NCBI GenBank assembly: GCA_009698575.1
Contig: WLPX01000003.1
Coordinates: 36,310 to 100,309 of the forward strand
DNA length: 64,000 nt
Direction: 5' to 3'
DNA from: Actinomycetota bacterium
GTDB lineage: Bacteria > Actinomycetota > Actinomycetes > S36-B12 > UBA5976
Below are positions 9,614-61,687 of this stretch, in pieces (position 1 is the first letter of the stretch; the number at the start of each line of letters is the position of its first letter). The notes beneath the pieces are model-generated. The model was not told where the DNA came from. It did no database searches and was given only the letters and a program-made list of their open reading frames with translations. Position numbers and translations under genes: made by a program.

Positions 9614-10570
9614 CTAATGCTTAGAAATACCCAGTTCTCTCAGGATCGATGTAACGGCTTCATCAGTGCTTAGGTTTCCGCTTGCCACTTGGGCACTTAA
9701 TTCATCAATTCGCGCCGAATGTAACTCGATCTGATCCGACAGTGCCGTGAGGACTGCCCGTCGCAAGCCCGTCTTAGCCCGATGCGCAACTCGCAGATCC
9801 CGACTACCCGAGGCAATCGCCCAAGTTCGATGATTCGAAATTGCCGTAACTAATTCCGGAATACCTAGACCATTAGTTGCAGTTGTTGTAACAATTTCCG
9901 GTGACCAACCAGCAGAATCACTAACACCCAGACCCAGCATGGAACGAAGTTCCCGCACTACACCTTCGGCGCCTTCTCGGTCAGCTTTATTCACGACGTA
10001 CAAATCTGCGATTTCTAAAATTCCCGCTTTAGCAGCTTGGATTCCATCGCCAGCGCCAGGTGCTAACACCAAGATCACAGTGTCCACAGCATTTACAACA
10101 TCTACTTCAGACTGGCCAACGCCAACTGTTTCTACGATCACGATATCGAAGCCGACTGCATCGAGGATTTTTGCTGCTGCCTGAGTTGCGCTAGAAAGTC
10201 CACCTAGCTGTCCGCGTGATGACATGGAGCGAATGAACACACCTTCATCAAGTGCGTGCTCCTGCATGCGAATTCGGTCGCCAAGGAGCGCTCCGCCAGT
10301 AACTGGTGATGAGGGATCGACAGCCAAGACTGCTACTCGCAAATTTTGCTTTCGGTACTCAGTGATTAATGCACCAGTTGTCGTTGACTTGCCAACTCCA
10401 GGCGGCCCGGTAATTCCTATTACTTGCGCGTTGCCGATTTTAGAACCAGCACCACTTGGGATACCTGCCAATAGTTCGCTTAAATCTGTAGCACCATCTT
10501 CAATTTCGCTTAGGACTTTACCTAGTGCACGCACATCACCAGCGATTGCGCTTTCAATTAACGGGTGCAT
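9614..10570 (-). CDS. meaB: MeaB/ArgK-type G-protein chaperone for AdoCbl-dependent mutases
   Basis: 318 aa. P-loop GITGPPGVGKST, the DRIRM motif, and NKAD. Confidence 0.88.
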   Translation of the reverse strand: MHPLIESAIAGDVRALGKVLSEIEDGATDLSELLAGIPSGAGSKIGNAQVIGITGPPGVGKSTTTGALITEYRKQNLRVAVLAVDPSSPVTGGALLGDRIRMQEHALDEGVFIRSMSSRGQLGGLSSATQAAAKILDAVGFDIVIVETVGVGQSEVDVVNAVDTVILVLAPGAGDGIQAAKAGILEIADLYVVNKADREGAEGVVRELRSMLGLGVSDSAGWSPEIVTTTATNGLGIPELVTAISNHRTWAIASGSRDLRVAHRAKTGLRRAVLTALSDQIELHSARIDELSAQVASGNLSTDEAVTSILRELGISKH

Positions 10571-16256: not shown

Positions 16257-16829
16257 ATGGTTAATTTAACGCGAATCTATACCCGCACTGGCGATGATGG
16301 CACTACCAACCTTGGCGACATGAGTCGAACCGGTAAAAATGATCCGCGGCTAAAAGCCTATGCAGATGTAGACGAAGCCAATAGCGCGATTGGCCTTGCC
16401 ATTGCGGCTGGTGAACTTCGTGCGGACCTTTCGGAGCTGCTAACCAAAATTCAAAACGAACTTTTTGACGTTGGCGCAGATCTATGTACTCCTGTAATTG
16501 ATAACCCAGCTCACGAACCGCTTCGGGTAACTCAGGATTACATTGAAAGACTCGAAACAGCATGTGATACTTTCAACGAAGAACTCGAAGCTTTGCGTTC
16601 GTTTATTCTGCCTGGTGGCACCGTTGGCGCAGCTCACTTACATGTAGCTCGGACTGTAACCAGACGCGCCGAACGCAGCACTTGGGCAGCGATTGATATG
16701 TATCACGGCGGCATGAACATGCTTGCAGCAAACTATTTAAATCGCCTTTCAGACCTGCTGTTTATACTTTCGCGTGTTGCCAATAAAGAAATTGGCGATG
16801 TCCTATGGCAACCAGGTAATACTCGCTGA
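16257..16829 (+). CDS. PduO-type ATP:cob(I)alamin adenosyltransferase (ATR domain only)
   Basis: 190 aa: RIYTRTGDDGTT...EANSAIG...FILPGG...RAER. It has no DUF336 C-terminal domain. Confidence 0.9.
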   Translation: MVNLTRIYTRTGDDGTTNLGDMSRTGKNDPRLKAYADVDEANSAIGLAIAAGELRADLSELLTKIQNELFDVGADLCTPVIDNPAHEPLRVTQDYIERLETACDTFNEELEALRSFILPGGTVGAAHLHVARTVTRRAERSTWAAIDMYHGGMNMLAANYLNRLSDLLFILSRVANKEIGDVLWQPGNTR

Positions 16830-32287: not shown

Positions 32288-33571
32288 ATGCTCACTCGTC
32301 AGGATGCCTTAGGTCTAGATGCCAATGATCCATTGGCAAAATACCAAGATTTATTTGTCGTCACGGACCCCGAAGTTTGCTATTTAGATGGCAATTCACT
32401 CGGTCGCCTGCCTAAGAAAACCATTGAGACTATAAATGATTTCTTGGTCAATGGCTGGGGAACCAAGATCGTCGACGGTTGGGCCGACTGGATTGATAAG
32501 GCCGAAACTACTGGTGACCTAATTGGTCGAGCAGCTCTCGGCGCTAGTGCCGGTCAGACTCTGGCCATGGATACCACAAGCGTAAATTTCTATCGCTTGG
32601 TGCGCGCTGCAATTGCGGCTCGACCTGGACGCAAAACCATAATCACCGATGAAGCCAACTTCCCTACCGATCGCTACATCATGCAAGGTATTGCCGATGA
32701 ACTTGGTTTGAACTTAGTTGTGATTCCTAATGATTTACAAGAACATGAAGTTGGAAAACCGTTTAGCGACGAACGAGTCACGCCAGCAATATTGAAGCCT
32801 TATCTGACCGACGATGTTGCGCTTGTAACTCTGTCAGTAGTTGCTTATCGGTCCGGGGCACTACACAACATCAAAGAACTCACTGACTTAGTGCGCGCTA
32901 ATGGCACACTTTTGGTTTGGGATGCCAGTCATGCAGTTGGCGCAGTCGACATGCAGTTCGATCTCGATGGTGTGGATTTGGCAGTTGGCTGTACCTACAA
33001 GTATGGAAACTCTGGACCCGGCTCGCCTGCTTGGTTATACGTGAGCAAGCGCCTGCAGTCAGAATTACAAATGCCAATACAGGGATGGTTCGCGCAACGC
33101 AATCAATTCCTAATGGGATCGAAGTTCGAGCAGATTGAAGGTATGCGCGGCTTTCAAATTGCTAGTCCATCAATCATTGGCTTACTTTGCATTGATGAAG
33201 GCTTCGGGATGATTGAAGCTGCATCGATCTCAGCGATAAATGCCAAGGCATCCAAAGGCACTGACATGATGATCGAGCTATTTGATCAATGGTTAGCTCC
33301 CCTTGGCTTTGAATTGGTTACGCCACGAGATTCAAAATTACGAGGTGGGCACATAAGTATTTACCATCCTGCAGCTGCCCAGATTGCACGTGGCTTGCGC
33401 GATGATATGAAAGTGATTCCAGATTACCGAGCTCCAAATAGTATTCGCGTTGCTATTTCACCACTTGCTACTTCATTTGTTGAGGTTTTTGAGGGCTTTG
33501 AGCGCATCCGTGATTACACGAAATCTGGAAAATATAAAGATTTAGATCTAAGCCACGTCAAGGTTTCTTAA
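32288..33571 (+). CDS. kynU: Kynureninase-family PLP hydrolase
   Basis: 427 aa with the kynureninase signature GCTYKYGNSGPGSPA (PLP lysine) and DASHAVG. Confidence 0.8.
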   Translation: MLTRQDALGLDANDPLAKYQDLFVVTDPEVCYLDGNSLGRLPKKTIETINDFLVNGWGTKIVDGWADWIDKAETTGDLIGRAALGASAGQTLAMDTTSVNFYRLVRAAIAARPGRKTIITDEANFPTDRYIMQGIADELGLNLVVIPNDLQEHEVGKPFSDERVTPAILKPYLTDDVALVTLSVVAYRSGALHNIKELTDLVRANGTLLVWDASHAVGAVDMQFDLDGVDLAVGCTYKYGNSGPGSPAWLYVSKRLQSELQMPIQGWFAQRNQFLMGSKFEQIEGMRGFQIASPSIIGLLCIDEGFGMIEAASISAINAKASKGTDMMIELFDQWLAPLGFELVTPRDSKLRGGHISIYHPAAAQIARGLRDDMKVIPDYRAPNSIRVAISPLATSFVEVFEGFERIRDYTKSGKYKDLDLSHVKVS

Positions 33572-33593: not shown

Positions 33594-34190
33594 ATGAGTA
33601 ACCAAATTGAAACTGTAATTACCATCCAACTTGAAAATCGCGATCGCAAGTCCGTCGCACTACGTATTTTCTTGGTAGTGCCTATTGCCATATTCGTTTC
33701 AGCTTTTACGGCTTGGTCGGGTTCCAGTGAGGCATCTACCTTCTTATCAGGATTACTGTTCCTGCCGATTGTGCTAGCTCTTGTTTTCCGGGGAATCTAT
33801 CCGTCTTACGCGTTGGCTTTTAATCAGGCTCTTTTGGCGCTTTCAACGCGAGTTTCGGCTTACATTTTATTGCTAAACGATAACTACCCATCAATTGAAG
33901 AAAGTGCCGATGTAAAAATCACATTCCCAGATGTTGATGGTGGCGCGAAACTCAATCGTTATCTGCCATTAGTTAAATGGTTTCTTGCGTTGCCGCTTTA
34001 CCTAGTTGGACTGGTTTACGTAATTTATGGCTTGGCTGTTCTGATCTTTACTTGGTTTACGATTTTGTTCACTGGGAAGATGCCAGCAGCAAGTGGTGAA
34101 GTTCTTTTGGGCGTCACACAATATTGGAATCGAGTTTATGGCTACGCATTCTTACTGGTAACAGATGAGTACCCAAGCTTTTCACTCTAG
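33594..34190 (+). CDS. DUF4389 membrane protein
   Basis: 198 aa with the pattern FTILFTGKMP...YWNRVYGYAFLLVTDEYPSF typical of DUF4389. Confidence 0.7.
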   Translation: MSNQIETVITIQLENRDRKSVALRIFLVVPIAIFVSAFTAWSGSSEASTFLSGLLFLPIVLALVFRGIYPSYALAFNQALLALSTRVSAYILLLNDNYPSIEESADVKITFPDVDGGAKLNRYLPLVKWFLALPLYLVGLVYVIYGLAVLIFTWFTILFTGKMPAASGEVLLGVTQYWNRVYGYAFLLVTDEYPSFSL

Positions 34191-35929
34191 TTTCTAATTA
34201 AATTTGCTAGTTCCTTTAGATCAAGGCAAACGTCTATCCCCAAGGCTTTGAGCTGTTCAGTAACGTCAACTGGCATGTCTTGACCTTCAATCTCTTGGTT
34301 GAGGCGCCCGCCAATTATTACCTGCGGTGAAATTTCTCGTTTGGCTAGCTCTGCCAAAAGGTTCTCGGCATAACTTAGTGCCATTCCATTGTGAGTTGAA
34401 ATTAAAACCGCGGTGGCATTTTCTTGAAGTGCTAATTCAGCTAACTCATCAGGATCAATGCCAACTGAGCCAATAATTGGTTTTATATCCAGGCTTTCCA
34501 CAGCGTCAATTACAAGTCTCATGCCAATTTCATGCACATCACTTGAGGCAATAACTGGCTTATGAGACTTATTCAGGATCCAGTTTGCAGGGCGCACCAC
34601 TTCCCTAATCTTTGCCCGCTCCGATAGGAAGTCTTTTAGAACGTCAGTTGGAACTAAGGGCTCATAACCATCAAATAGCGGATCTTCGGTTGGTGTACCT
34701 ACGCCAAAACTTCGCTCTAGCTGGCTTGGTCCCAATCGGCGTACTGCAAGTAATAGTTGTAACGGATCCTTTATGTCTGCACCAAGCTCTGATAATCCGT
34801 TTATCAAATTGTCAAAGAATTTGTTTCCATTTTTTACTAGTTCTTGGCTTCGAAACTCAAGACTCTCCCAATTGGTGACTGGATAAATCGAATCCAACTT
34901 AGCTTTAGTGTGATGTGCAATTGTTTGGACATCAATAATTTCTTCGGGAGTTGGAACTCGGATGGCTTCAGTAACCGGAACCGGCATAATCGATGACCCA
35001 GCGCGCAAATGTCGATCGGCCAGCATCATGTACAAAACATCTACGCCAAGTACTCCATAGTTCTGTTCAATGTTTTGGGTATATCGAGTGGTATTTCCAA
35101 AGTAAAACGATGAGCAAACATCAGGCGGTCGCAACGTTTCGATAGCCATCGTTACGATCGTTTTTGTAATTGGATCATGGGTTAGGCCACCATAGGCATG
35201 CGCAAGTTTTGCACCAATCAATTCTTCAACTACATACCTTTCAAATTTTGCCCAACCAATGTAAGAGGCATAATCTCCAAATTGAGCTGGGAAGCCATCA
35301 TCTAAGTAGGAATGCACCACTGCCCCTTGTGATGCTTTGCTCGCCATCATGCCAAGGGCTTTTACTACTTCGCTCATTTGCGCGATATCGTCGCCCGGCC
35401 ATCCTGGATACTTCCAGGCGAACTGCGATAAATTACCGATATAGTTCACGCCTGCTGTTAAAGCGCGACGAGTATTGTCGACCGATGATGGAGATCCGAT
35501 CATCATGTCGCCCATGTGGGGTTGGATTTGAATGGAATGAGCTACTTCATTCCATTCCGAGTCTGAATTCAACATAGGACCGGTTTCTTTAAGCGCTCCG
35601 GCTCGATACTCGGGCGGAAGTCCCATTCGGCGATCCAAGGCGATAATAAATCTGTCTATATAGAAACCACGATCTGAAGTTTTTTGCCAGATTTTTTCTA
35701 GACCCTTTTTGGTTTCGGGCCAATCTGTCAAGCCAATAGTTAAGGCCGTCATAGTGCGACCTGCTTTAGCCATCTTTAATTTGTACTCAAGCTCAGAACT
35801 CACACCATGAAATTTACAAAATGCACTAGTGCCCATTTCGATTTGGTTTCCCAAATCTTTTCCTTGCGCAACTAACGATGGACCATCTAGCAATGTCCCT
35901 GTGAGAAAAAATTCCTTAGTCGCTTTCAC
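34187..35929 (-). CDS. Orphan cobalamin-binding enzyme: about 450-aa N-terminal catalytic region fused to a C-terminal B12-binding (DxHxxG) Rossmann domain
   Basis: 580 aa. The C-terminal roughly 125 aa align by eye to the glutamate mutase S subunit: DVHEIG (34523-34540), ISTHNG (SxL position) and VIIGGR (GG position). The N-terminal region is unassigned and could be a GlmE/2-methyleneglutarate-mutase-like barrel. Confidence 0.7.
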   Translation of the reverse strand: MKATKEFFLTGTLLDGPSLVAQGKDLGNQIEMGTSAFCKFHGVSSELEYKLKMAKAGRTMTALTIGLTDWPETKKGLEKIWQKTSDRGFYIDRFIIALDRRMGLPPEYRAGALKETGPMLNSDSEWNEVAHSIQIQPHMGDMMIGSPSSVDNTRRALTAGVNYIGNLSQFAWKYPGWPGDDIAQMSEVVKALGMMASKASQGAVVHSYLDDGFPAQFGDYASYIGWAKFERYVVEELIGAKLAHAYGGLTHDPITKTIVTMAIETLRPPDVCSSFYFGNTTRYTQNIEQNYGVLGVDVLYMMLADRHLRAGSSIMPVPVTEAIRVPTPEEIIDVQTIAHHTKAKLDSIYPVTNWESLEFRSQELVKNGNKFFDNLINGLSELGADIKDPLQLLLAVRRLGPSQLERSFGVGTPTEDPLFDGYEPLVPTDVLKDFLSERAKIREVVRPANWILNKSHKPVIASSDVHEIGMRLVIDAVESLDIKPIIGSVGIDPDELAELALQENATAVLISTHNGMALSYAENLLAELAKREISPQVIIGGRLNQEIEGQDMPVDVTEQLKALGIDVCLDLKELANLIRN

Positions 35930-35939
35930 GCGTCACCTC

Positions 35940-36740
35940 TTAAGGCAAGTATGCCGTTTCTGCAGCTAGCGTGCGCATGGCTTTTGCAATTGTCTGGATC
36001 TTTGCATCCAAAGTTGTAAGTCCCAGTTCGAACGTTACAGCGGTGGTATCGGGGAATGTTGAGTTAACCCAGATAGTAAAAGTCCCAGTGTAGGTATTTG
36101 TTGGTGATCCAGATTTTTCACCTGGAATGCATTCGGATTTATAGCCGGTTATTTGCGAAAGGCGATCGCTGATCGTTGCCGGTCGCTCTGGTGGACAGTC
36201 AATCTGCGCATATGGCTGATGGAACACCACGATCCGAGTTGGTTGAATCTTTTGGACTGCTTGCATCAGCGCAAGAGTTTCTGGTTCACTTGCTGGACTT
36301 GGACCGCTGTAAGTTCGCGCAGTTGGATCTGAGGCTTCCCACTTGATTGGGAAATTCCGATTTATATCAACTCGGTTAGCATTACGACGAGTTACTAACA
36401 CGGCACCATCGGGATTGCCATCGCGAATTACCCAGATTTCAGATTCTTTCGATACGGCCTGAGTCAACAACTTGTCTATGACTCGCTTGCCATCCGGCTC
36501 ATCTCCATGAATTGTGCCAATAACTAGTAACGCATTCTTTGAGTCAATAGCGGATCCAATTAATCTGCATGCAGTTATCTCTACTCCATTAACCGATTTA
36601 CCTACGACAATTGTTTCCTGGCAGCCACCAGCTTTGGGACTGTTCGAATCCTGCCAAATTTGAAACGCCCAGATTCCCGCGAAAATAGCAAGTGCAGCTA
36701 ATGCGCCTTCGATAACAATTAGCCAGAGTTTCATTCGCAC
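35940..36740 (-). CDS. M14 zinc carboxypeptidase/amidase (MpaA-like), membrane-anchored
   Basis: 266 aa. N-terminal TM helix, zinc motif HGDEPDG, then NRNFP and SEPE motifs. Confidence 0.8.
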   Translation of the reverse strand: MRMKLWLIVIEGALAALAIFAGIWAFQIWQDSNSPKAGGCQETIVVGKSVNGVEITACRLIGSAIDSKNALLVIGTIHGDEPDGKRVIDKLLTQAVSKESEIWVIRDGNPDGAVLVTRRNANRVDINRNFPIKWEASDPTARTYSGPSPASEPETLALMQAVQKIQPTRIVVFHQPYAQIDCPPERPATISDRLSQITGYKSECIPGEKSGSPTNTYTGTFTIWVNSTFPDTTAVTFELGLTTLDAKIQTIAKAMRTLAAETAYLP

Positions 36741-59450: not shown

Positions 59451-61687
59451 TTCCAAACGAGCCAATTGGCCGCTTTCGTTTTATGAACGAGCAGCGCGTC
59501 AATCTCGACGGTTTTGCAACTCCCGAACCTGAGTTAGGACTAGTTGCATTCAATGGCATAAACGATCCAGCTCCTTCATTGATAATCAATGCCGGACGCA
59601 TTGTGGAAATGGATGGTCGGGGCGAATCAGATTTTGATTCAATCGATGAGTTCATCGCCCGGCACGGAATTGACTTAAGTGTTGCCCAAGAAGCTATGGC
59701 AATCGACAGCACGGAGTTTGCTCGCAGACTCGTTGATCCCAATCATTCTCGAAAAAGCATTGTGCAACTTGCCTCTGGGATGACACCTGCAAAGTTAGCC
59801 GAGATACTTTCCCTACTTACTGCCGCAGAATTAGTTATCGCAATGACAAAAATGCGAGCAAGGCGTACGCCGAGTAATCAGGCGCATGTAACTAACAGGT
59901 CGGATGATCCGCTATTGCTTGCCGCTGATGCCGCAACTGCCGCCGCATTTGGATTTAGAGAACTTGAAACCACAGTTCCAGTTGCAGCCGATGCGCCATC
60001 TAATGCAGTTGCAGTATCAATCGGAGCGGCTGTTGGCTCGCCTGGCGTGCTAGTGCAGTGTTCGGTTGAAGAAGCCGCAGAGTTAGCCCTTGGCATGCGT
60101 GGATTAGTTTCGTACGCAGAAACGGTTTCGCTTTATGGAACTGAACAAATTTTTATCGATGGTGACGACACTCCGTGGTCTAAAGCATTTCTAACTAGCG
60201 CCTACGCCAGTCGTGGCATCAAAATGCGAGTTACTTCTGGTGGTGGTTCCGAAGCCCTGATGGGCGGTGCTGAAAAATGCAGCATGTTTTATCTTGAGGC
60301 GCGCTGCGTTGCGCTAGCTCGAGCAATCGGCGCACAAGGTGTGCAAAACGGTGGAATCGATTCAGCTTCAGTTGCTGGTGCCGTACCAGGTGGTGTTCGT
60401 TCCTTAATGGCAGAAAACGTAATGGTGATGTTGCGAAATCTCGAAGCTTGCACAGGTAACGACGCGCTAATGAGTGAATCTGACGTTCGGAGAACTTCGA
60501 GAACTCATCCAATTTTTATTGGCGGCTCCGACTTTATTAATAGTGGGTTTGGTTCAATCCAGCGCTACGACAATATGTTTGGGCCAAGTCAGTGGAATTC
60601 TGAAGACATCGATGATTTCTTGGCTATGCAACGCGACTGGGGTGTCGATGGTGGTCTTCGCACCGCAAATGAAGTCGAAGTTGCCAGATTACGGCGGCGC
60701 GCAACGGAAGCAGTAAGTGCGGTTTATTCCTGGTTGGGACTAGGCGATTTTTCCCAAGAGTGGGCCGAGCAGGCCATTGATGCGGCTGGCTCTAAAGATA
60801 TTTCTTCGGGCGACTTGATGCTTCCACTAACTGCAGCTCGCACAATTATGGAAACCAATGTAACCATGCTTGACGTCATCGCAGCCCTTGCCGAAAATGG
60901 TTTCGATCTAGAGGCGCAACGTTGCTTGGACATGCTTAAGGCTCGAGTTGCAGGTGACTACTTACAAACTTCAGCAATTTTCGACGAAGAAATGAATGTG
61001 CTTTCGCTAGTTACAGATCCAAATGAATACTCCGGTCCTGGAACGGGATATCAACCGACGCCTGCTCGACAGGCACAGATCGACACCATTAGACAGCAAC
61101 GTTCAGTTGCTGACTTACTTGTGGAACAAAAAAGTTTTGGAAACAAGAATATTTTTGCAACTGGATCTGCTGAAGTTAGTTACGACCCGCGTGATGTTGT
61201 TATCGGTGTCTCACCTGCCACTGGTAAAGACATTTGGGTCACACTCTCTGGTCTAAGTGTTGCCGATGCGATAACTGAAATCCTGGCTGGTCTCGAAGAA
61301 GAGGGTTGCGTTGGACGCATAGTTCGCATCAATGACTCACTTGATTTGGGCATGATCGGGTTAACTGCTGCCCGACTTTCCGGATCTGGTGTCAGCGTTG
61401 GATTGCAAGCAAAGGGAACTGCATTAATTCATCGCAGAGATTTAGCTCCACTGGCAAACCTCGAGTTGTATTCAGTTGCTCCGACAATTACGCGCGAGCT
61501 TTATCGCATGATGGGAATCAACGCTGGTCGCCATGCAAAGGGAGCTACGCCCGAACCAGTCCGCAATCCATATTCGGATGAAGCAATTGAAGCGCGCTAC
61601 CACACCAAAGTTGTTTCATTAGTTGCGATTGAACGTAATTGCGTAACTAAAGAAGTCCCAGAAGTTATGGAGCTGAGGAAGTCATGA
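59438..61687 (+). CDS. pduCD: Coenzyme-B12-dependent diol/glycerol dehydratase, fused large (alpha) + medium (beta) subunit
   Basis: 749 aa. Residues 1 to about 550 are collinear with PduC (MTPAKL, MRARRTPSNQAHVTN, DGDDTPWSKAFL, YLEARC, DNMF, GDYLQTSA). Residues from about 586 to the end are collinear with the PduD core (VVIGVSPATG...LSGSGVSVGLQAKGT...NLELYS). An alternative start at ATG 59447 gives an ATGA overlap with the DUF336 gene. Confidence 0.9.
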   Translation: MPGMIPNEPIGRFRFMNEQRVNLDGFATPEPELGLVAFNGINDPAPSLIINAGRIVEMDGRGESDFDSIDEFIARHGIDLSVAQEAMAIDSTEFARRLVDPNHSRKSIVQLASGMTPAKLAEILSLLTAAELVIAMTKMRARRTPSNQAHVTNRSDDPLLLAADAATAAAFGFRELETTVPVAADAPSNAVAVSIGAAVGSPGVLVQCSVEEAAELALGMRGLVSYAETVSLYGTEQIFIDGDDTPWSKAFLTSAYASRGIKMRVTSGGGSEALMGGAEKCSMFYLEARCVALARAIGAQGVQNGGIDSASVAGAVPGGVRSLMAENVMVMLRNLEACTGNDALMSESDVRRTSRTHPIFIGGSDFINSGFGSIQRYDNMFGPSQWNSEDIDDFLAMQRDWGVDGGLRTANEVEVARLRRRATEAVSAVYSWLGLGDFSQEWAEQAIDAAGSKDISSGDLMLPLTAARTIMETNVTMLDVIAALAENGFDLEAQRCLDMLKARVAGDYLQTSAIFDEEMNVLSLVTDPNEYSGPGTGYQPTPARQAQIDTIRQQRSVADLLVEQKSFGNKNIFATGSAEVSYDPRDVVIGVSPATGKDIWVTLSGLSVADAITEILAGLEEEGCVGRIVRINDSLDLGMIGLTAARLSGSGVSVGLQAKGTALIHRRDLAPLANLELYSVAPTITRELYRMMGINAGRHAKGATPEPVRNPYSDEAIEARYHTKVVSLVAIERNCVTKEVPEVMELRKS

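What the first reader, a model, noticed from the sequence alone, without database searches (positions are those of the whole stretch)
34187..35929. Orphan single-chain B12 enzyme: large unassigned N-terminal region fused to a canonical DxHxxG cobalamin-binding domain
The last roughly 125 residues match the base-off/His-on B12-binding Rossmann domain motif for motif: DVHEIG, then ISTHNG at the SxL position, then VIIGGR at the GG position. They align by eye along glutamate mutase subunit S. The preceding roughly 450 residues do not look like methylmalonyl-CoA mutase, methionine synthase or a corrinoid methyltransferase cap. Size and order (catalytic region first, B12 domain last) resemble a fused glutamate-mutase-like or 2-methyleneglutarate-mutase-like carbon-skeleton mutase. 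No partner subunit, substrate-pathway gene or reactivase is adjacent. Its neighbours are an exported M14 peptidase, DUF4389 and kynureninase. The substrate is not predictable from this window.
Basis: partly seen in the sequence, partly recalled or inferred. Interest (0 to 1): 0.6.

Follow-up and report, generated by a model that had tools for sequence, protein, structure and literature searches.

The report
Uncharacterised single-chain B12 radical isomerase
This gene encodes a well-conserved member of an unstudied family of vitamin-B12 enzymes built like glutamate mutase in one chain; its substrate is unknown, and finding it would add a new reaction to the short list of B12 radical rearrangements.

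Summary
Window 34187-35929 (minus strand) is a 580-aa ORF. Its last ~125 residues form a base-off/His-on cobalamin domain: DVHEIG 464-469, STHNGMAL 511-518 and GG 540-541, spaced as in methylmalonyl-CoA mutase. Residues 1-450 match no Pfam, NCBIfam or PDB sequence model.

Predicted structures (pLDDT 89 and 93) show a TIM barrel closest to glutamate mutase GlmE (Foldseek E 2e-11). Lysine and ornithine aminomutase barrels come next, and acyl-CoA mutases are far behind.

The protein belongs to a compact family of ~580-aa proteins present in more than ten phyla, named only 'hypothetical' or 'MCM B12-binding subunit'. Relatives are often coupled or fused to MutL-type reactivases. They also sit beside P5C-reductase-like, proline-racemase-like, gamma-glutamylcyclotransferase-like and amino-acid-oxidase genes.

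GlmE's arginine claw is not kept at the aligned positions, and there is no conserved PLP lysine and no methyltransferase cap.

In this probable Nanopelagicales genus the gene is a clean single-gene presence/absence polymorphism (7 of 31 genomes) between an M14 peptidase gene and a DUF4389 gene. Its local neighbours therefore say little about function.

Best reading: an adenosylcobalamin radical isomerase or eliminase acting on a small amino or imino acid, substrate unresolved. The scan has noted this family twice before on other DNA.

The parts
34187..35929 (-). 580-aa ORF (stop codon 34187-34189): single-chain B12 isomerase-like protein, P0001
   Evidence: More than 712 homologues of about 580 aa. 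The window protein keeps every family position that is at least 97% conserved (checked against the translation).
34595..35929 (-). Residues 1-445: catalytic (beta/alpha)8 barrel plus helical extension, with no sequence-family assignment
   Evidence: AF2 model m7e046f7267f4, pLDDT 93.2. Foldseek matches: GlmE 1cb7_B E 2.3e-11 with TMq 0.59, KamD 1xrs_A E 2.6e-8, OraE 3kp0_A E 1.7e-4. No Pfam, NCBIfam or PDB sequence hit.
34190..34567 (-). Residues ~455-580: Rossmann-type cobalamin-binding domain
   Evidence: PF02310 E 1.3e-6. The family profile hits 2yxb, 4r3u_C and GlmS. Foldseek 4r3u_C TM 0.78.
34523..34540 (-). DVHEIG (residues 464-469): the DxHxxG motif, with H466 as the predicted lower cobalt ligand
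   Evidence: D464 and H466 are invariant in 73 of 73 sequences. Position 469 is G in 18 and A in 55.
34376..34399 (-). STHNGMAL (residues 511-518): family signature at the SxL position
   Evidence: All eight residues are invariant in 73 of 73 sequences. S511 lies 45 residues after H466.
34307..34312 (-). G540-G541: the GG motif, followed by the conserved L543-N544-Q545 (at least 97%)
34964..34966 (-). Codon of E321, within the PVTEAIRVP loop after barrel strand 8. It aligns with GlmE E330, which I recall as the adenosyl-ribose contact.
   Evidence: Global hhalign of alignment A3 against a GlmE alignment (Prob 38%) aligns EA..VPT with GlmE EA..IPT. E321, R324 and P326 are invariant. The alignment has low confidence.
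35934..35939 (-). GAGGTG ribosome-binding site, directly after the M14 stop codon and 4 nt before the GTG start

Best explanation
The gene encodes a functional, single-chain, base-off/His-on adenosylcobalamin (AdoCbl) radical enzyme. It belongs to a previously uncharacterised family that shares its fold, but no recognisable sequence family, with glutamate mutase.

Inferred mechanism:
1. The C-terminal Rossmann domain binds the cofactor, with H466 replacing the dimethylbenzimidazole base.
2. The N-terminal TIM barrel closes over the upper face of the corrin.
3. Substrate binding triggers Co-C homolysis.
4. The 5'-deoxyadenosyl radical, its ribose probably held by invariant E321, abstracts a hydrogen from a small carboxylate substrate. 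That substrate is held by invariant R93, R100, R101 and R324 and by D99, D141, N166 and D211.
5. A 1,2-shift or elimination follows, and the hydrogen is returned.

The substrate is probably not L-glutamate bound the way GlmE binds it, because the arginine claw is not kept at the aligned positions. It is also unlikely to be an acyl-CoA. Gene neighbourhoods across the family point to a five-carbon amino or imino acid of the proline / hydroxyproline / glutamate / ornithine group, probably with a cyclic-imine product in the sister clade.

In this genome the enzyme works alone. AdoCbl would come from the PduO-type adenosyltransferase encoded 18 kb away.

Shown here: the ORF, the motifs, the family, the predicted fold, the neighbourhood statistics and the indel. 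Inferred: cofactor form, radical chemistry and substrate class.

My odds are about 0.75 for an AdoCbl radical isomerase or eliminase and about 0.45 for a substrate in the Pro/Glu/Orn group. No single substrate rates above about 0.15. The confidence given (0.7) is for the statement taken as an AdoCbl radical enzyme acting on a small amino- or imino-acid-like carboxylate.
For: B12 domain:
- The motifs are present with the expected spacing.
- The family profile hits B12-mutase small subunits.
- The motif residues are invariant across 73 sequences.

Catalytic domain:
- The full-length AF2 model (pLDDT 88.6) matches MCM alpha chains over both domains (E 5e-12, TMq 0.52-0.58) and GlmE.
- The barrel-only model (pLDDT 93.2) ranks GlmE first, then KamD, then OraE. 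Generic TIM barrels follow, and IcmF is only 26th.
- A global profile alignment to GlmE is colinear and shares GRT[LM]T, G[ST]P and EA..[IV]PT. GlmE E330 aligns with invariant E321.
- Conserved residues cluster in the loops after the barrel strands.

Links to AdoCbl reactivases:
- A MutL (PF13941) gene lies directly upstream in 10 of 80 loci. In L001 it overlaps the mutase gene by 4 bp. It is also upstream in L098, L099 and L103.
- A hydantoinase-A-like ATPase lies 11-57 bp downstream in most of the 8 loci that have one within 3 kb.
- Mutase+MutL fusion proteins exist: P0133 (857 aa) and P0270.

Substrate-class hints:
- A ProC-like reductase is adjacent on the same strand in 25 of 80 loci across many phyla.
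- Proline-racemase-like genes occur in 6 loci, GGACT/AIG2-like in 10, DAO in 5, SDR in 13, and class-III aminotransferases in 3.
- Prolidase-type M24 peptidases flank the gene in L029 and L058.
- A 2OG oxygenase lies upstream in L102.
- A cultured Maritalea porphyrae carries a Dpp-ABC / ProC-like / mutase / AIG2-like operon.

Cofactor supply in this genome:
- PduO-type adenosyltransferase, MeaB and two MCM-type enzymes are present.
- A B12 diol dehydratase is present in this genome and in all 7 genus genomes that carry the gene.
Against: - No experiment exists for any family member.
- The fold evidence rests on predicted models.
- Local hhalign to GlmE is insignificant (Prob 3.5%), and the global alignment reaches only 38%. 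Residue mapping is therefore tentative.
- The Pfam B12 hit is below the gathering cut-off.
- This genome has no MutL, as was also the case for 3-4 of 5 other carrier genomes tested.
- The ProC/GGACT link belongs to the sister clade B (36-41% identity), which differs at some pocket-proximal positions such as K114A and S146F.
- Clade A contexts are heterogeneous. They include an acyl-CoA-type cluster with CoA ligase, CoA transferase and enoyl-CoA hydratases around tandem paralogues.
- In this genus the neighbours are demonstrably independent of the gene.
Confidence: 0.7

Rival explanations
1. It is a 2-methyleneglutarate-mutase-type carbon-skeleton mutase. It would act on a non-amino dicarboxylic acid (or its CoA ester) in an organic-acid catabolic route.
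For: - The domain order and size match what I recall for Eubacterium barkeri Mgm: about 614 aa with a C-terminal DxHxxG domain (Beatrix et al. 1994, cited; the details are from memory).
- Tandem paralogues with MutL sit in a cluster containing an acyl-CoA ligase, a family-III CoA-transferase, enoyl-CoA hydratases and a 3-hydroxyacyl-CoA dehydrogenase.
- A CoA-transferase lies upstream in L062.
- Four invariant arginines could bind two carboxylates.
Against: - No nicotinate-pathway neighbours were recognised in the roughly 88 loci examined.
- Most conserved neighbours are amino- or imino-acid enzymes.
- The closest barrels are those of amino-acid mutases.
- No Mgm sequence was available, so homology remains untested.
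Confidence: 0.13
2. It is a true glutamate mutase (L-glutamate to 3-methylaspartate) in which the E and S subunits are fused.
For: GlmE is the best structural match. MutL partners occur in relatives. Gamma-glutamyl-processing neighbours are present: MpaA-like M14, GATase_4 and GGACT.
Against: - There is no PF06368 or NCBIfam GlmE hit.
- hhalign gives Prob 3.5%.
- GlmE R66, R100 and R149 align with T/H/N64, I96 and H138.
- No methylaspartate ammonia-lyase scores above the cut-off in this genome, and none was seen beside any relative.
Confidence: 0.05
3. It is a PLP- and AdoCbl-dependent aminomutase, like lysine 5,6-aminomutase or ornithine 4,5-aminomutase, moving an amino group of ornithine, lysine or a related diamino acid.
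For: KamD and OraE are the second and third best barrel matches. Class-III aminotransferase and ProC-like neighbours fit ornithine-type metabolism.
Against: No lysine is conserved in the Rossmann domain, which is where I recall KamE and OraE anchoring PLP. The only conserved lysine in 73 sequences is K50, which precedes barrel strand 1. No S/beta-type partner subunit is present.
Confidence: 0.05
4. It is not a radical enzyme. It would be a methylcobalamin-type corrinoid methyltransferase fusion, or a B12-binding sensor or carrier.
For: MetH folate+cobalamin modules appear among the full-length Foldseek hits (E 1e-8). MttB-family methyltransferase genes lie near the gene in L044 and L060.
Against: - TM scores to MetH are only about 0.27.
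- No B12-binding_2 cap domain was detected.
- MutL-type reactivase coupling and fusions are, to my knowledge, typical of AdoCbl enzymes.
- The barrel has an enzyme-like invariant pocket.
Confidence: 0.04
5. In this lineage the gene is a decaying relic with no current function.
For: It is present in only 7 of 31 genomes of the genus and has no dedicated partner. One genus copy (G428) is split into two pieces.
Against: - The frame is intact and the Shine-Dalgarno site is good.
- All residues conserved in at least 97% of the family are retained.
- Copies within the genus are 81-85% identical, and have diverged about as much as their flanking genes.
Confidence: 0.03

Closest known systems
Glutamate (methylaspartate) mutase GlmE/GlmS = MutE/MutS with chaperone GlmL/MutL (EC 5.4.99.1; PDB 1cb7, 1ccw, 6h9e; Pfam PF06368 + PF02310)
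   Same: - It is the best structural match for the barrel (E 2e-11, about 490 aligned columns).
- The small amino-acid-sized barrel has a C-terminal helical extension.
- The B12 domain is His-on with the same motif spacing.
- The EA..[IV]PT loop is shared, with the glutamate that I recall contacting the adenosyl ribose.
- MutL-type partners occur in relatives.
   Different: - It is one chain (barrel first, then the B12 domain) rather than two subunits.
- There is no PF06368 match, and the profile-profile comparison is not significant.
- The arginine claw is not conserved at the aligned positions.
- A family-specific insertion, MGDMM, carries invariant G140 and D141.
- No methylaspartase is present in the genome.
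2-Methyleneglutarate mutase Mgm of Eubacterium barkeri (EC 5.4.99.4)
   Same: From memory of Beatrix et al. 1994: a single chain of about 614 aa, with an N-terminal catalytic region lacking obvious similarity to other mutases, a C-terminal DxHxxG domain, and a MutL-like partner (MgmL).
   Different: No sequence or structure was at hand, so kinship is untested. The neighbourhoods of this family are amino- and imino-acid genes, not nicotinate-fermentation genes.
Lysine 5,6-aminomutase KamDE (PDB 1xrs) and ornithine 4,5-aminomutase OraSE (PDB 3kp0/3kp1)
   Same: They are the second and third best barrel matches. They have amino-acid substrates and a His-on B12 Rossmann domain.
   Different: They need PLP bound to a lysine of the Rossmann domain, and no such conserved lysine exists here. 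They also have extra subunits or domains.
Methylmalonyl-CoA mutase family (PDB 1req, 2xiq; PF01642)
   Same: They share the same two-domain order in one chain. They are the best full-length Foldseek hits (E 5e-12, TMq up to 0.58), and the DxHxxG/SxL/GG spacing is identical.
   Different: There is no PF01642 match. The barrel alone is much closer to GlmE. The N-terminal CoA-binding arm is absent. The genome already has two ordinary MCM-type enzymes.
Glycyl-radical trans-4-hydroxy-L-proline dehydratase HypD with its adjacent P5C reductase (PMC7077986)
   Same: This is an analogy of context only. HypD is a radical enzyme encoded next to a P5C reductase, which is also the commonest neighbour in clade B of this family. 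That paper notes that several glycyl-radical eliminases have B12-dependent counterparts.
   Different: The fold and cofactor are unrelated. No evidence shows that hydroxyproline is the substrate here.
GlmS+GlmE-order fused B12 protein paired with opine dehydrogenase (predicted by Zhang et al. 2009, PMC2667541)
   Same: It is another uncharacterised single-chain glutamate-mutase-like B12 family.
   Different: The domain order is opposite (B12 domain at the N-terminus) and the conserved partner differs (opine dehydrogenase). It is not the same family.

Membership tests
Base-off/His-on AdoCbl-dependent isomerases (general class) | Rossmann B12-binding domain with DxHxxG ... SxL ... GG | tested here: met
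   D464-x-H466-x-x-G469, S511 (45 residues after the His) and G540-G541 (74 after) are present. The motifs are invariant in 73 sequences except that G469 is often A. PDB profile hits to mutase small subunits.
Base-off/His-on AdoCbl-dependent isomerases (general class) | (beta/alpha)8 barrel catalytic domain of the mutase type | tested here: met
   AF2 models with pLDDT 88.6 and 93.2. Foldseek matches GlmE, KamD, OraE and MCM. These are predicted structures, not solved ones.
Base-off/His-on AdoCbl-dependent isomerases (general class) | Binds adenosylcobalamin and generates a 5'-deoxyadenosyl radical | not testable with these tools
   This needs UV-vis and EPR spectroscopy and activity assays on purified protein.
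Base-off/His-on AdoCbl-dependent isomerases (general class) | Dedicated reactivase or chaperone partner (MutL/GlmL, MeaB, DdrAB) | tested here: inconclusive
   MutL is adjacent in 10 of 80 loci and a hydantoinase-A-like ATPase in 8 of 80. Fusion proteins exist. However, no MutL is present in this genome, nor in 3-4 of 5 other carrier genomes. The MeaB in the window is about 24 kb away.
Glutamate mutase (GlmE/GlmS, PF06368) | Sequence membership in the Met_asp_mut_E family | tested here: not met
   No PF06368 or TIGR GlmE hit. Local hhalign against a GlmE alignment gives Prob 3.5%.
Glutamate mutase (GlmE/GlmS, PF06368) | Arginine claw R66/R100/R149 binding the two carboxylates of glutamate (residue roles from memory) | tested here: not met
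   The global hhalign (Prob 38%) aligns these residues with T64 (H/N in relatives), I96 and H138. The alignment has low confidence.
Glutamate mutase (GlmE/GlmS, PF06368) | Pathway partner methylaspartate ammonia-lyase | tested here: not met
   PF07476 gives only a 23-bit sub-threshold match in this genome. None was recognised beside relatives.
2-Methyleneglutarate mutase (Mgm) | Sequence homology to E. barkeri Mgm | not testable with these tools
   No Mgm sequence or structure is held in any library that I could query by name.
PLP/AdoCbl aminomutases (KamDE, OraSE) | Conserved PLP-anchoring lysine in the Rossmann domain (role from memory) | tested here: not met
   No lysine column reaches 70% conservation outside K50 in 73 sequences.
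Acyl-CoA mutases (MCM/ICM/HCM, PF01642) | MM_CoA_mutase barrel with a CoA-binding channel | tested here: not met
   No PF01642 hit. With the barrel-only model, IcmF ranks 26th and no MCM chain is in the top 50.
Corrinoid-dependent methyltransferases | Four-helix cap (B12-binding_2, PF02607) before the Rossmann domain | tested here: not met
   No PF02607 hit at E <= 0.01. TM to MetH modules is about 0.27.

The most novel reading that the evidence does not exclude
The family is the first adenosylcobalamin enzyme to act on a proline-family imino acid. One example would be an oxygen-tolerant B12 counterpart of the glycyl-radical hydroxyproline dehydratase HypD, turning a hydroxyproline isomer into a pyrroline carboxylate. 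The adjacent ProC-like reductase would then reduce that product. A ring-opening or ring-contracting variant of the same chemistry is also possible. This would add a new reaction class to the roughly dozen known AdoCbl isomerases and eliminases. It would also reveal a B12-dependent route for collagen- or peptide-derived imino acids in anaerobic sediments, marine bacteria and abundant freshwater actinobacteria.
Probability: 0.13. Interest if true: 0.85.

Novelty: new variant of a known kind. Interest (0 to 1): 0.62.

Why it matters
Only about a dozen adenosylcobalamin-dependent isomerases and eliminases are known, and each has been a reference case for radical enzymology. This gene belongs to a well-delimited, highly conserved family with a complete B12 mutase architecture. 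The N-terminal profile finds 570 representatives of 50%-identity clusters among 1.84 billion proteins, in more than ten phyla. The family nevertheless has no Pfam or NCBIfam model for its catalytic domain, no informative annotation and no described substrate.

The family-wide links to MutL reactivases and to imine-, proline- and gamma-glutamyl-type enzymes make the problem directly testable. A cultured carrier (Maritalea porphyrae) has a compact transporter / reductase / mutase / cyclotransferase operon.

For freshwater Nanopelagicales, which depend on external B12, the gene is a strain-variable trait. It adds to their set of B12-dependent functions and may mark a specific dissolved organic nitrogen niche.

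Tried and rejected
1. Pfam, NCBIfam and PDB sequence searches on the full protein and on a 30-sequence profile gave only B12-domain hits.
2. Local hhalign against a GlmE alignment built from actinobacterial GlmE genes was insignificant, Prob 3.5%. The weak PF06368 matches to ~550-aa ORFs in other Actinomycetota are not this family.
3. The idea that M14, DUF4389 and the kynureninase-like gene form a functional island with the mutase was rejected. These genes occur in 20-21 of 31 genus genomes, against 7 for the mutase. In G312 and G345, M14 and DUF4389 lie 18 bp apart with no mutase remnant.
4. The classical glutamate-mutase pathway was rejected: there is no methylaspartase and no arginine claw.
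5. The PLP aminomutase reading was rejected: there is no conserved lysine in the Rossmann domain.
6. The 'novel B12 family' of Zhang et al. 2009 is a different family, with an N-terminal B12 domain and an opine dehydrogenase partner.
7. Seven literature searches found no paper describing this family or a B12-dependent hydroxyproline or proline enzyme.
8. Rfam found no riboswitch or other RNA family in the window. The promoter and terminator scan was uninformative.
10. The 1101-aa ORF in L014 is a spurious upstream extension in a high-GC genome, not a fusion.
Full report
**Observation.** The finding's coordinates hold a 580-codon ORF on the minus strand, 34187-35929. It starts with GTG, preceded by GAGGTG 4 nt upstream, directly after the stop codon of the upstream M14 peptidase gene. 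The translation contains the quoted motifs: DVHEIG at residues 464-469, STHNGMAL at 511-518 and GG at 540-541. The His-to-Ser distance is 45 residues and the His-to-GG distance is 74, which is the spacing I recall for methylmalonyl-CoA mutase.

Pfam finds only a sub-threshold B12-binding match (PF02310, E 1.3e-6, 28.7 against 32.1 bits). NCBIfam finds only weak GlmS and MCM C-terminal matches. A profile of 30 homologues strengthens the case. It hits the B12 subunits of a coenzyme-B12 mutase (2yxb, E 1.4e-5), of 2-hydroxyisobutyryl-CoA mutase (4r3u_C) and of glutamate mutase, but nothing for residues 1-450.

**The family.** More than 712 clusters at 90% identity match the protein end to end. 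Almost all are 575-600 aa and are named 'hypothetical protein', 'cobalamin-dependent protein' or 'methylmalonyl-CoA mutase cobalamin-binding subunit'. A profile of the N-terminal 450 residues alone, run against 1.84 billion representatives, finds 570 proteins at E <= 1e-3 and 160 at E <= 1e-30. The full-length ones are again about 580-600 aa. It is a compact, sharply bounded family.

Genome hits come from Nanopelagicales-type Actinomycetota (81-85% identity), Alphaproteobacteria and a Mycolicibacterium (47-50%). At 36-41% identity they come from Thermodesulfobacteriota, Synergistota, Chloroflexota, Bacillota, Bacteroidota, Gammaproteobacteria and others.

In 73 full-length sequences about 80 positions are at least 97% conserved. 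The window protein carries the consensus residue at every one of them (checked). Among these positions:
- D464 and H466.
- The whole STHNGMAL block.
- G540 and G541, then L543, N544 and Q545.
- In the barrel: R93, D99, R100, R101, E115, D141, N166, D211, E321 and R324.

Position 469 of 'DxHxxG' is Ala in 55 sequences and Gly in 18. The window has the canonical Gly.

**Fold.** AlphaFold2 with the family alignment gives a confident model (pLDDT 88.6, pTM 0.88). Foldseek against the PDB returns MCM alpha chains over both domains (E 5e-12, TMq 0.52-0.58), GlmE (E 1.4e-10) and ornithine aminomutase. The isolated B12 subunit 4r3u_C matches with TM 0.78.

I then modelled residues 1-450 alone (pLDDT 93.2) so that the B12 domain could not drive the ranking. 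The ranking was as follows:
- GlmE first (1cb7_B, E 2.3e-11, TMq 0.59, 491 columns).
- Lysine 5,6-aminomutase KamD second (E 2.6e-8).
- Ornithine 4,5-aminomutase third (E 1.7e-4).
- Generic TIM barrels after that.
- IcmF only 26th, and no MCM chain in the top 50.

The barrel is therefore of the amino-acid-mutase type, not the acyl-CoA-mutase type.

At sequence level the kinship is almost invisible. Local hhalign against a GlmE alignment (built from loci, alignment A2) gives Prob 3.5%. A forced global alignment (Prob 38%) is colinear and lines up GRT[LM]T at strand 1, G[ST]P, and EA..[IV]PT after strand 8. In that alignment GlmE E330 falls on invariant E321; I recall E330 as the adenosyl-ribose contact. 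GlmE's arginine claw (R66, R100, R149) falls on T/H/N64, I96 and H138. The residue mapping is tentative. If it holds, the substrate is not bound as GlmE binds glutamate.

**Rival domain types.** No lysine is conserved in the Rossmann domain; the only conserved lysine is K50. This argues against a KamE/OraE-type PLP aminomutase. No B12-binding_2 cap is detected, and TM scores to MetH modules are about 0.27. This argues against a methyltransferase.

**Neighbourhoods of relatives.** I examined 80 genome loci plus 8 metagenome loci. Genes within 3 kb of the family gene (annotated) were:

| Neighbour | Loci (of 80) | Notes |
|---|---|---|
| ProC-like pyrroline-5-carboxylate reductase | 25 | Almost always same strand, 45-240 bp away; 187-195 bits against the 196.75 cut-off of TIGR00112 |
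| SDR | 13 | |
| MutL (PF13941) | 10 | Directly upstream; overlaps the mutase gene by 4 bp in L001 |
| GGACT/AIG2-like protein | 10 | |
| Hydantoinase/oxoprolinase-A-like ATPase | 8 | Mostly Synergistota; 11-57 bp downstream in most |
| Proline-racemase-superfamily gene | 6 | 58-87 bp upstream in Hyphomicrobiaceae |
| DAO-type oxidase | 5 | |

Further cases:
- MutL-mutase pairs in L098, L099 and L103.
- A 2OG-Fe(II) oxygenase directly upstream in L102.
- An ANTAR regulator upstream in L100.
- Prolidase-type M24 genes in L029 and L058.
- MttB-family methyltransferases in L044 and L060.
- Predicted proteins that fuse the whole mutase to a MutL domain: P0133 (857 aa) and P0270.

To my knowledge, MutL/GlmL-type ATPases are partners of AdoCbl enzymes. 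This coupling is the strongest non-structural argument for radical AdoCbl chemistry.

The cultured Maritalea porphyrae strain G21631-S1 carries a compact operon: a Dpp-type ABC transporter, a ProC-like gene, the mutase and an AIG2-like gene, with a divergent GntR regulator. It is a practical experimental handle.

**Two clades.** A maximum-likelihood tree splits the family by a long branch.
- Clade A holds the window protein, other Nanopelagicales, Mycolicibacterium and the Alphaproteobacteria. Its contexts are MutL, proline-racemase-like, DAO, SDR and luciferase-like oxidoreductase genes. One subgroup has tandem paralogues inside an acyl-CoA-type cluster.
- Clade B holds the ProC/GGACT/SDR/hydantoinase-like contexts.

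The clades share the invariant pocket residues listed above but differ at some nearby positions, such as K114 to A and S146 to F. The ProC link cannot therefore be transferred to the window protein without reserve. The proline-racemase-like link occurs in both clades.

**Context in this genome.** The assembly is 1.70 Mb in 30 contigs and 92% complete. By its closest relatives it is a freshwater Nanopelagicales. It has no MutL and no methylaspartase above the cut-off. It does have:
- A PduO-type adenosyltransferase, at window ~16275-16781.
- MeaB, at window ~9728-10450.
- Two MCM-type enzymes.
- Four other B12-binding-domain matches.
- A B12 diol dehydratase, at window ~59471-61108.

AdoCbl supply is therefore plausible.

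The family gene is rare in the order. It was found in 4 of 121 sampled genomes, all in the window's own genus, and in 7 of 31 genomes of that genus. The kynureninase-like and M14 genes are present in 21 and 20 of those 31 genomes.

In G312 and G345 the order is rho, M14, DUF4389, kynureninase-like, prfA. M14 and DUF4389 are 18 bp apart with no trace of the mutase. In G360 and G435 the mutase fills exactly that gap. The gene is thus a single-gene presence/absence polymorphism, and its neighbours are not its pathway.

Genus copies are 81-85% identical, similar to the flanking genes. This fits old presence with repeated loss better than recent transfer. All 7 carrier genomes also carry the B12 diol dehydratase, against 10 of the 24 non-carriers. 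The genomes are kin and many are incomplete, so this is only a hint.

**Interpretation.** The best-supported reading is a functional AdoCbl-dependent radical isomerase or eliminase from a new family with glutamate-mutase-like architecture. It would act on a small amino or imino acid carboxylate.

The most attractive specific idea is reasoned from context only. In Clostridiales the glycyl-radical hydroxyproline dehydratase HypD is encoded next to a P5C reductase. The same paper notes that several glycyl-radical eliminases have B12-dependent counterparts (PMC7077986). A B12 enzyme that produces a pyrroline carboxylate from a hydroxyproline isomer or a related compound would explain the ProC-like, proline-racemase-like, SDR, DAO, prolidase and 2OG-oxygenase neighbours. 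It would not explain the GGACT-like, GATase_4 or CoA-cluster contexts. I give it about 0.13.

**Prior knowledge.** Seven literature searches found no description of this family. The 'novel B12-dependent family' of Zhang et al. 2009 has its B12 domain at the N-terminus and an opine dehydrogenase partner, so it is a different family.

Earlier notes of this scan describe what is very probably the same family on other DNA. One is a 597-aa protein whose 'usual neighbours are enzymes that process imines' (e1-1392940). The other is a 589-aa DxHxxA protein coupled to a ProC-family reductase (e1-4971393). These notes agree with my independent neighbourhood counts. I did not compare those sequences directly.

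**Verdict.** The gene is a new, uncharacterised variant of a known kind of enzyme and is worth biochemical follow-up. The substrate remains open.

Noticed in passing
window 34187-36740; L104 (G312), L105 (G345), L106 (G360), L107 (G435): The mutase is a clean single-gene presence/absence polymorphism within the genus. Where it is absent, the M14 and DUF4389 genes lie 18 bp apart with no remnant. The mutase is in 7 of 31 genomes, against 20-21 of 31 for its neighbours.
   Followed up: yes
G428:C46:100-1796 (same genus; not fetched as a locus): One genus copy of the mutase matches in two overlapping pieces (residues 15-202 and 200-580). This is either a frameshifted pseudogene or an assembly error.
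   Followed up: no
L058:8001-9665 (Dehalococcoides sp. JdFR-54 MAG): The family gene has an in-frame TGA exactly at the codon of the invariant R324. A CGA-to-TGA nonsense change, a sequencing error or recoding could explain it.
   Followed up: partly
window ~59471-61108 (+); genus genomes: The B12 diol-dehydratase large subunit is present in 17 of 31 genus genomes, including all 7 that carry the mutase. The mutase may be kept only in genomes that already use AdoCbl. The genomes are kin and many are incomplete, so this is not a statistical test.
   Followed up: partly
window ~16275-16781 (+) and ~9728-10450 (-): A PduO-type ATP:cob(I)alamin adenosyltransferase and a MeaB-type G-protein chaperone are encoded in the same window. 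Together they could supply AdoCbl.
   Followed up: partly
P0133 (857 aa), P0270 (664 aa), P0191 (608 aa): Some metagenomic proteins fuse the complete mutase to a MutL N-terminal domain, or fuse a hydantoinase-A N-domain to the barrel. These are Rosetta-stone links to the reactivase. They could be gene-calling merges.
   Followed up: partly
L002:312-3831; L098:5227-8749: Tandem paralogues of the family (597 and 582 aa) follow MutL. They sit in a cluster with an acyl-CoA ligase, a family-III CoA-transferase, enoyl-CoA hydratases, a 3-hydroxyacyl-CoA dehydrogenase and an ABC transporter. This may be a heterodimeric subfamily with an organic-acid or CoA-ester substrate.
   Followed up: partly
L081:1555-10987 (Maritalea porphyrae strain G21631-S1): A cultured isolate carries a Dpp-type ABC transporter / ProC-like / mutase / AIG2-like operon with a divergent GntR-FCD regulator. 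It is a ready genetic system for finding the substrate.
   Followed up: partly
L005:313-9743: In one Nanopelagicales-type MAG the mutase ends a same-strand string: Liv-type amino-acid ABC transporter, GATase_4 (Ntn amidohydrolase-like), class-III aminotransferase, M14, mutase. The record is titled 'Bifidobacterium breve', which looks like a mislabel given 84% identity and synteny with Nanopelagicales.
   Followed up: partly
window 32288-33571 (+): The kynureninase-like gene scores 210 bits against the 246-bit cut-off of TIGR01814. It is co-oriented with DUF4389, 22 bp downstream, so it may not be a true kynureninase. Whether the genome has the rest of the kynurenine pathway was not checked.
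   Followed up: no
L100:6350-8752; L102:5932-9123: Two other clade-A contexts were seen: an ANTAR response regulator directly upstream (L100), and a 2OG-Fe(II) oxygenase upstream with an overlapping 123-aa ORF downstream (L102).
   Followed up: no
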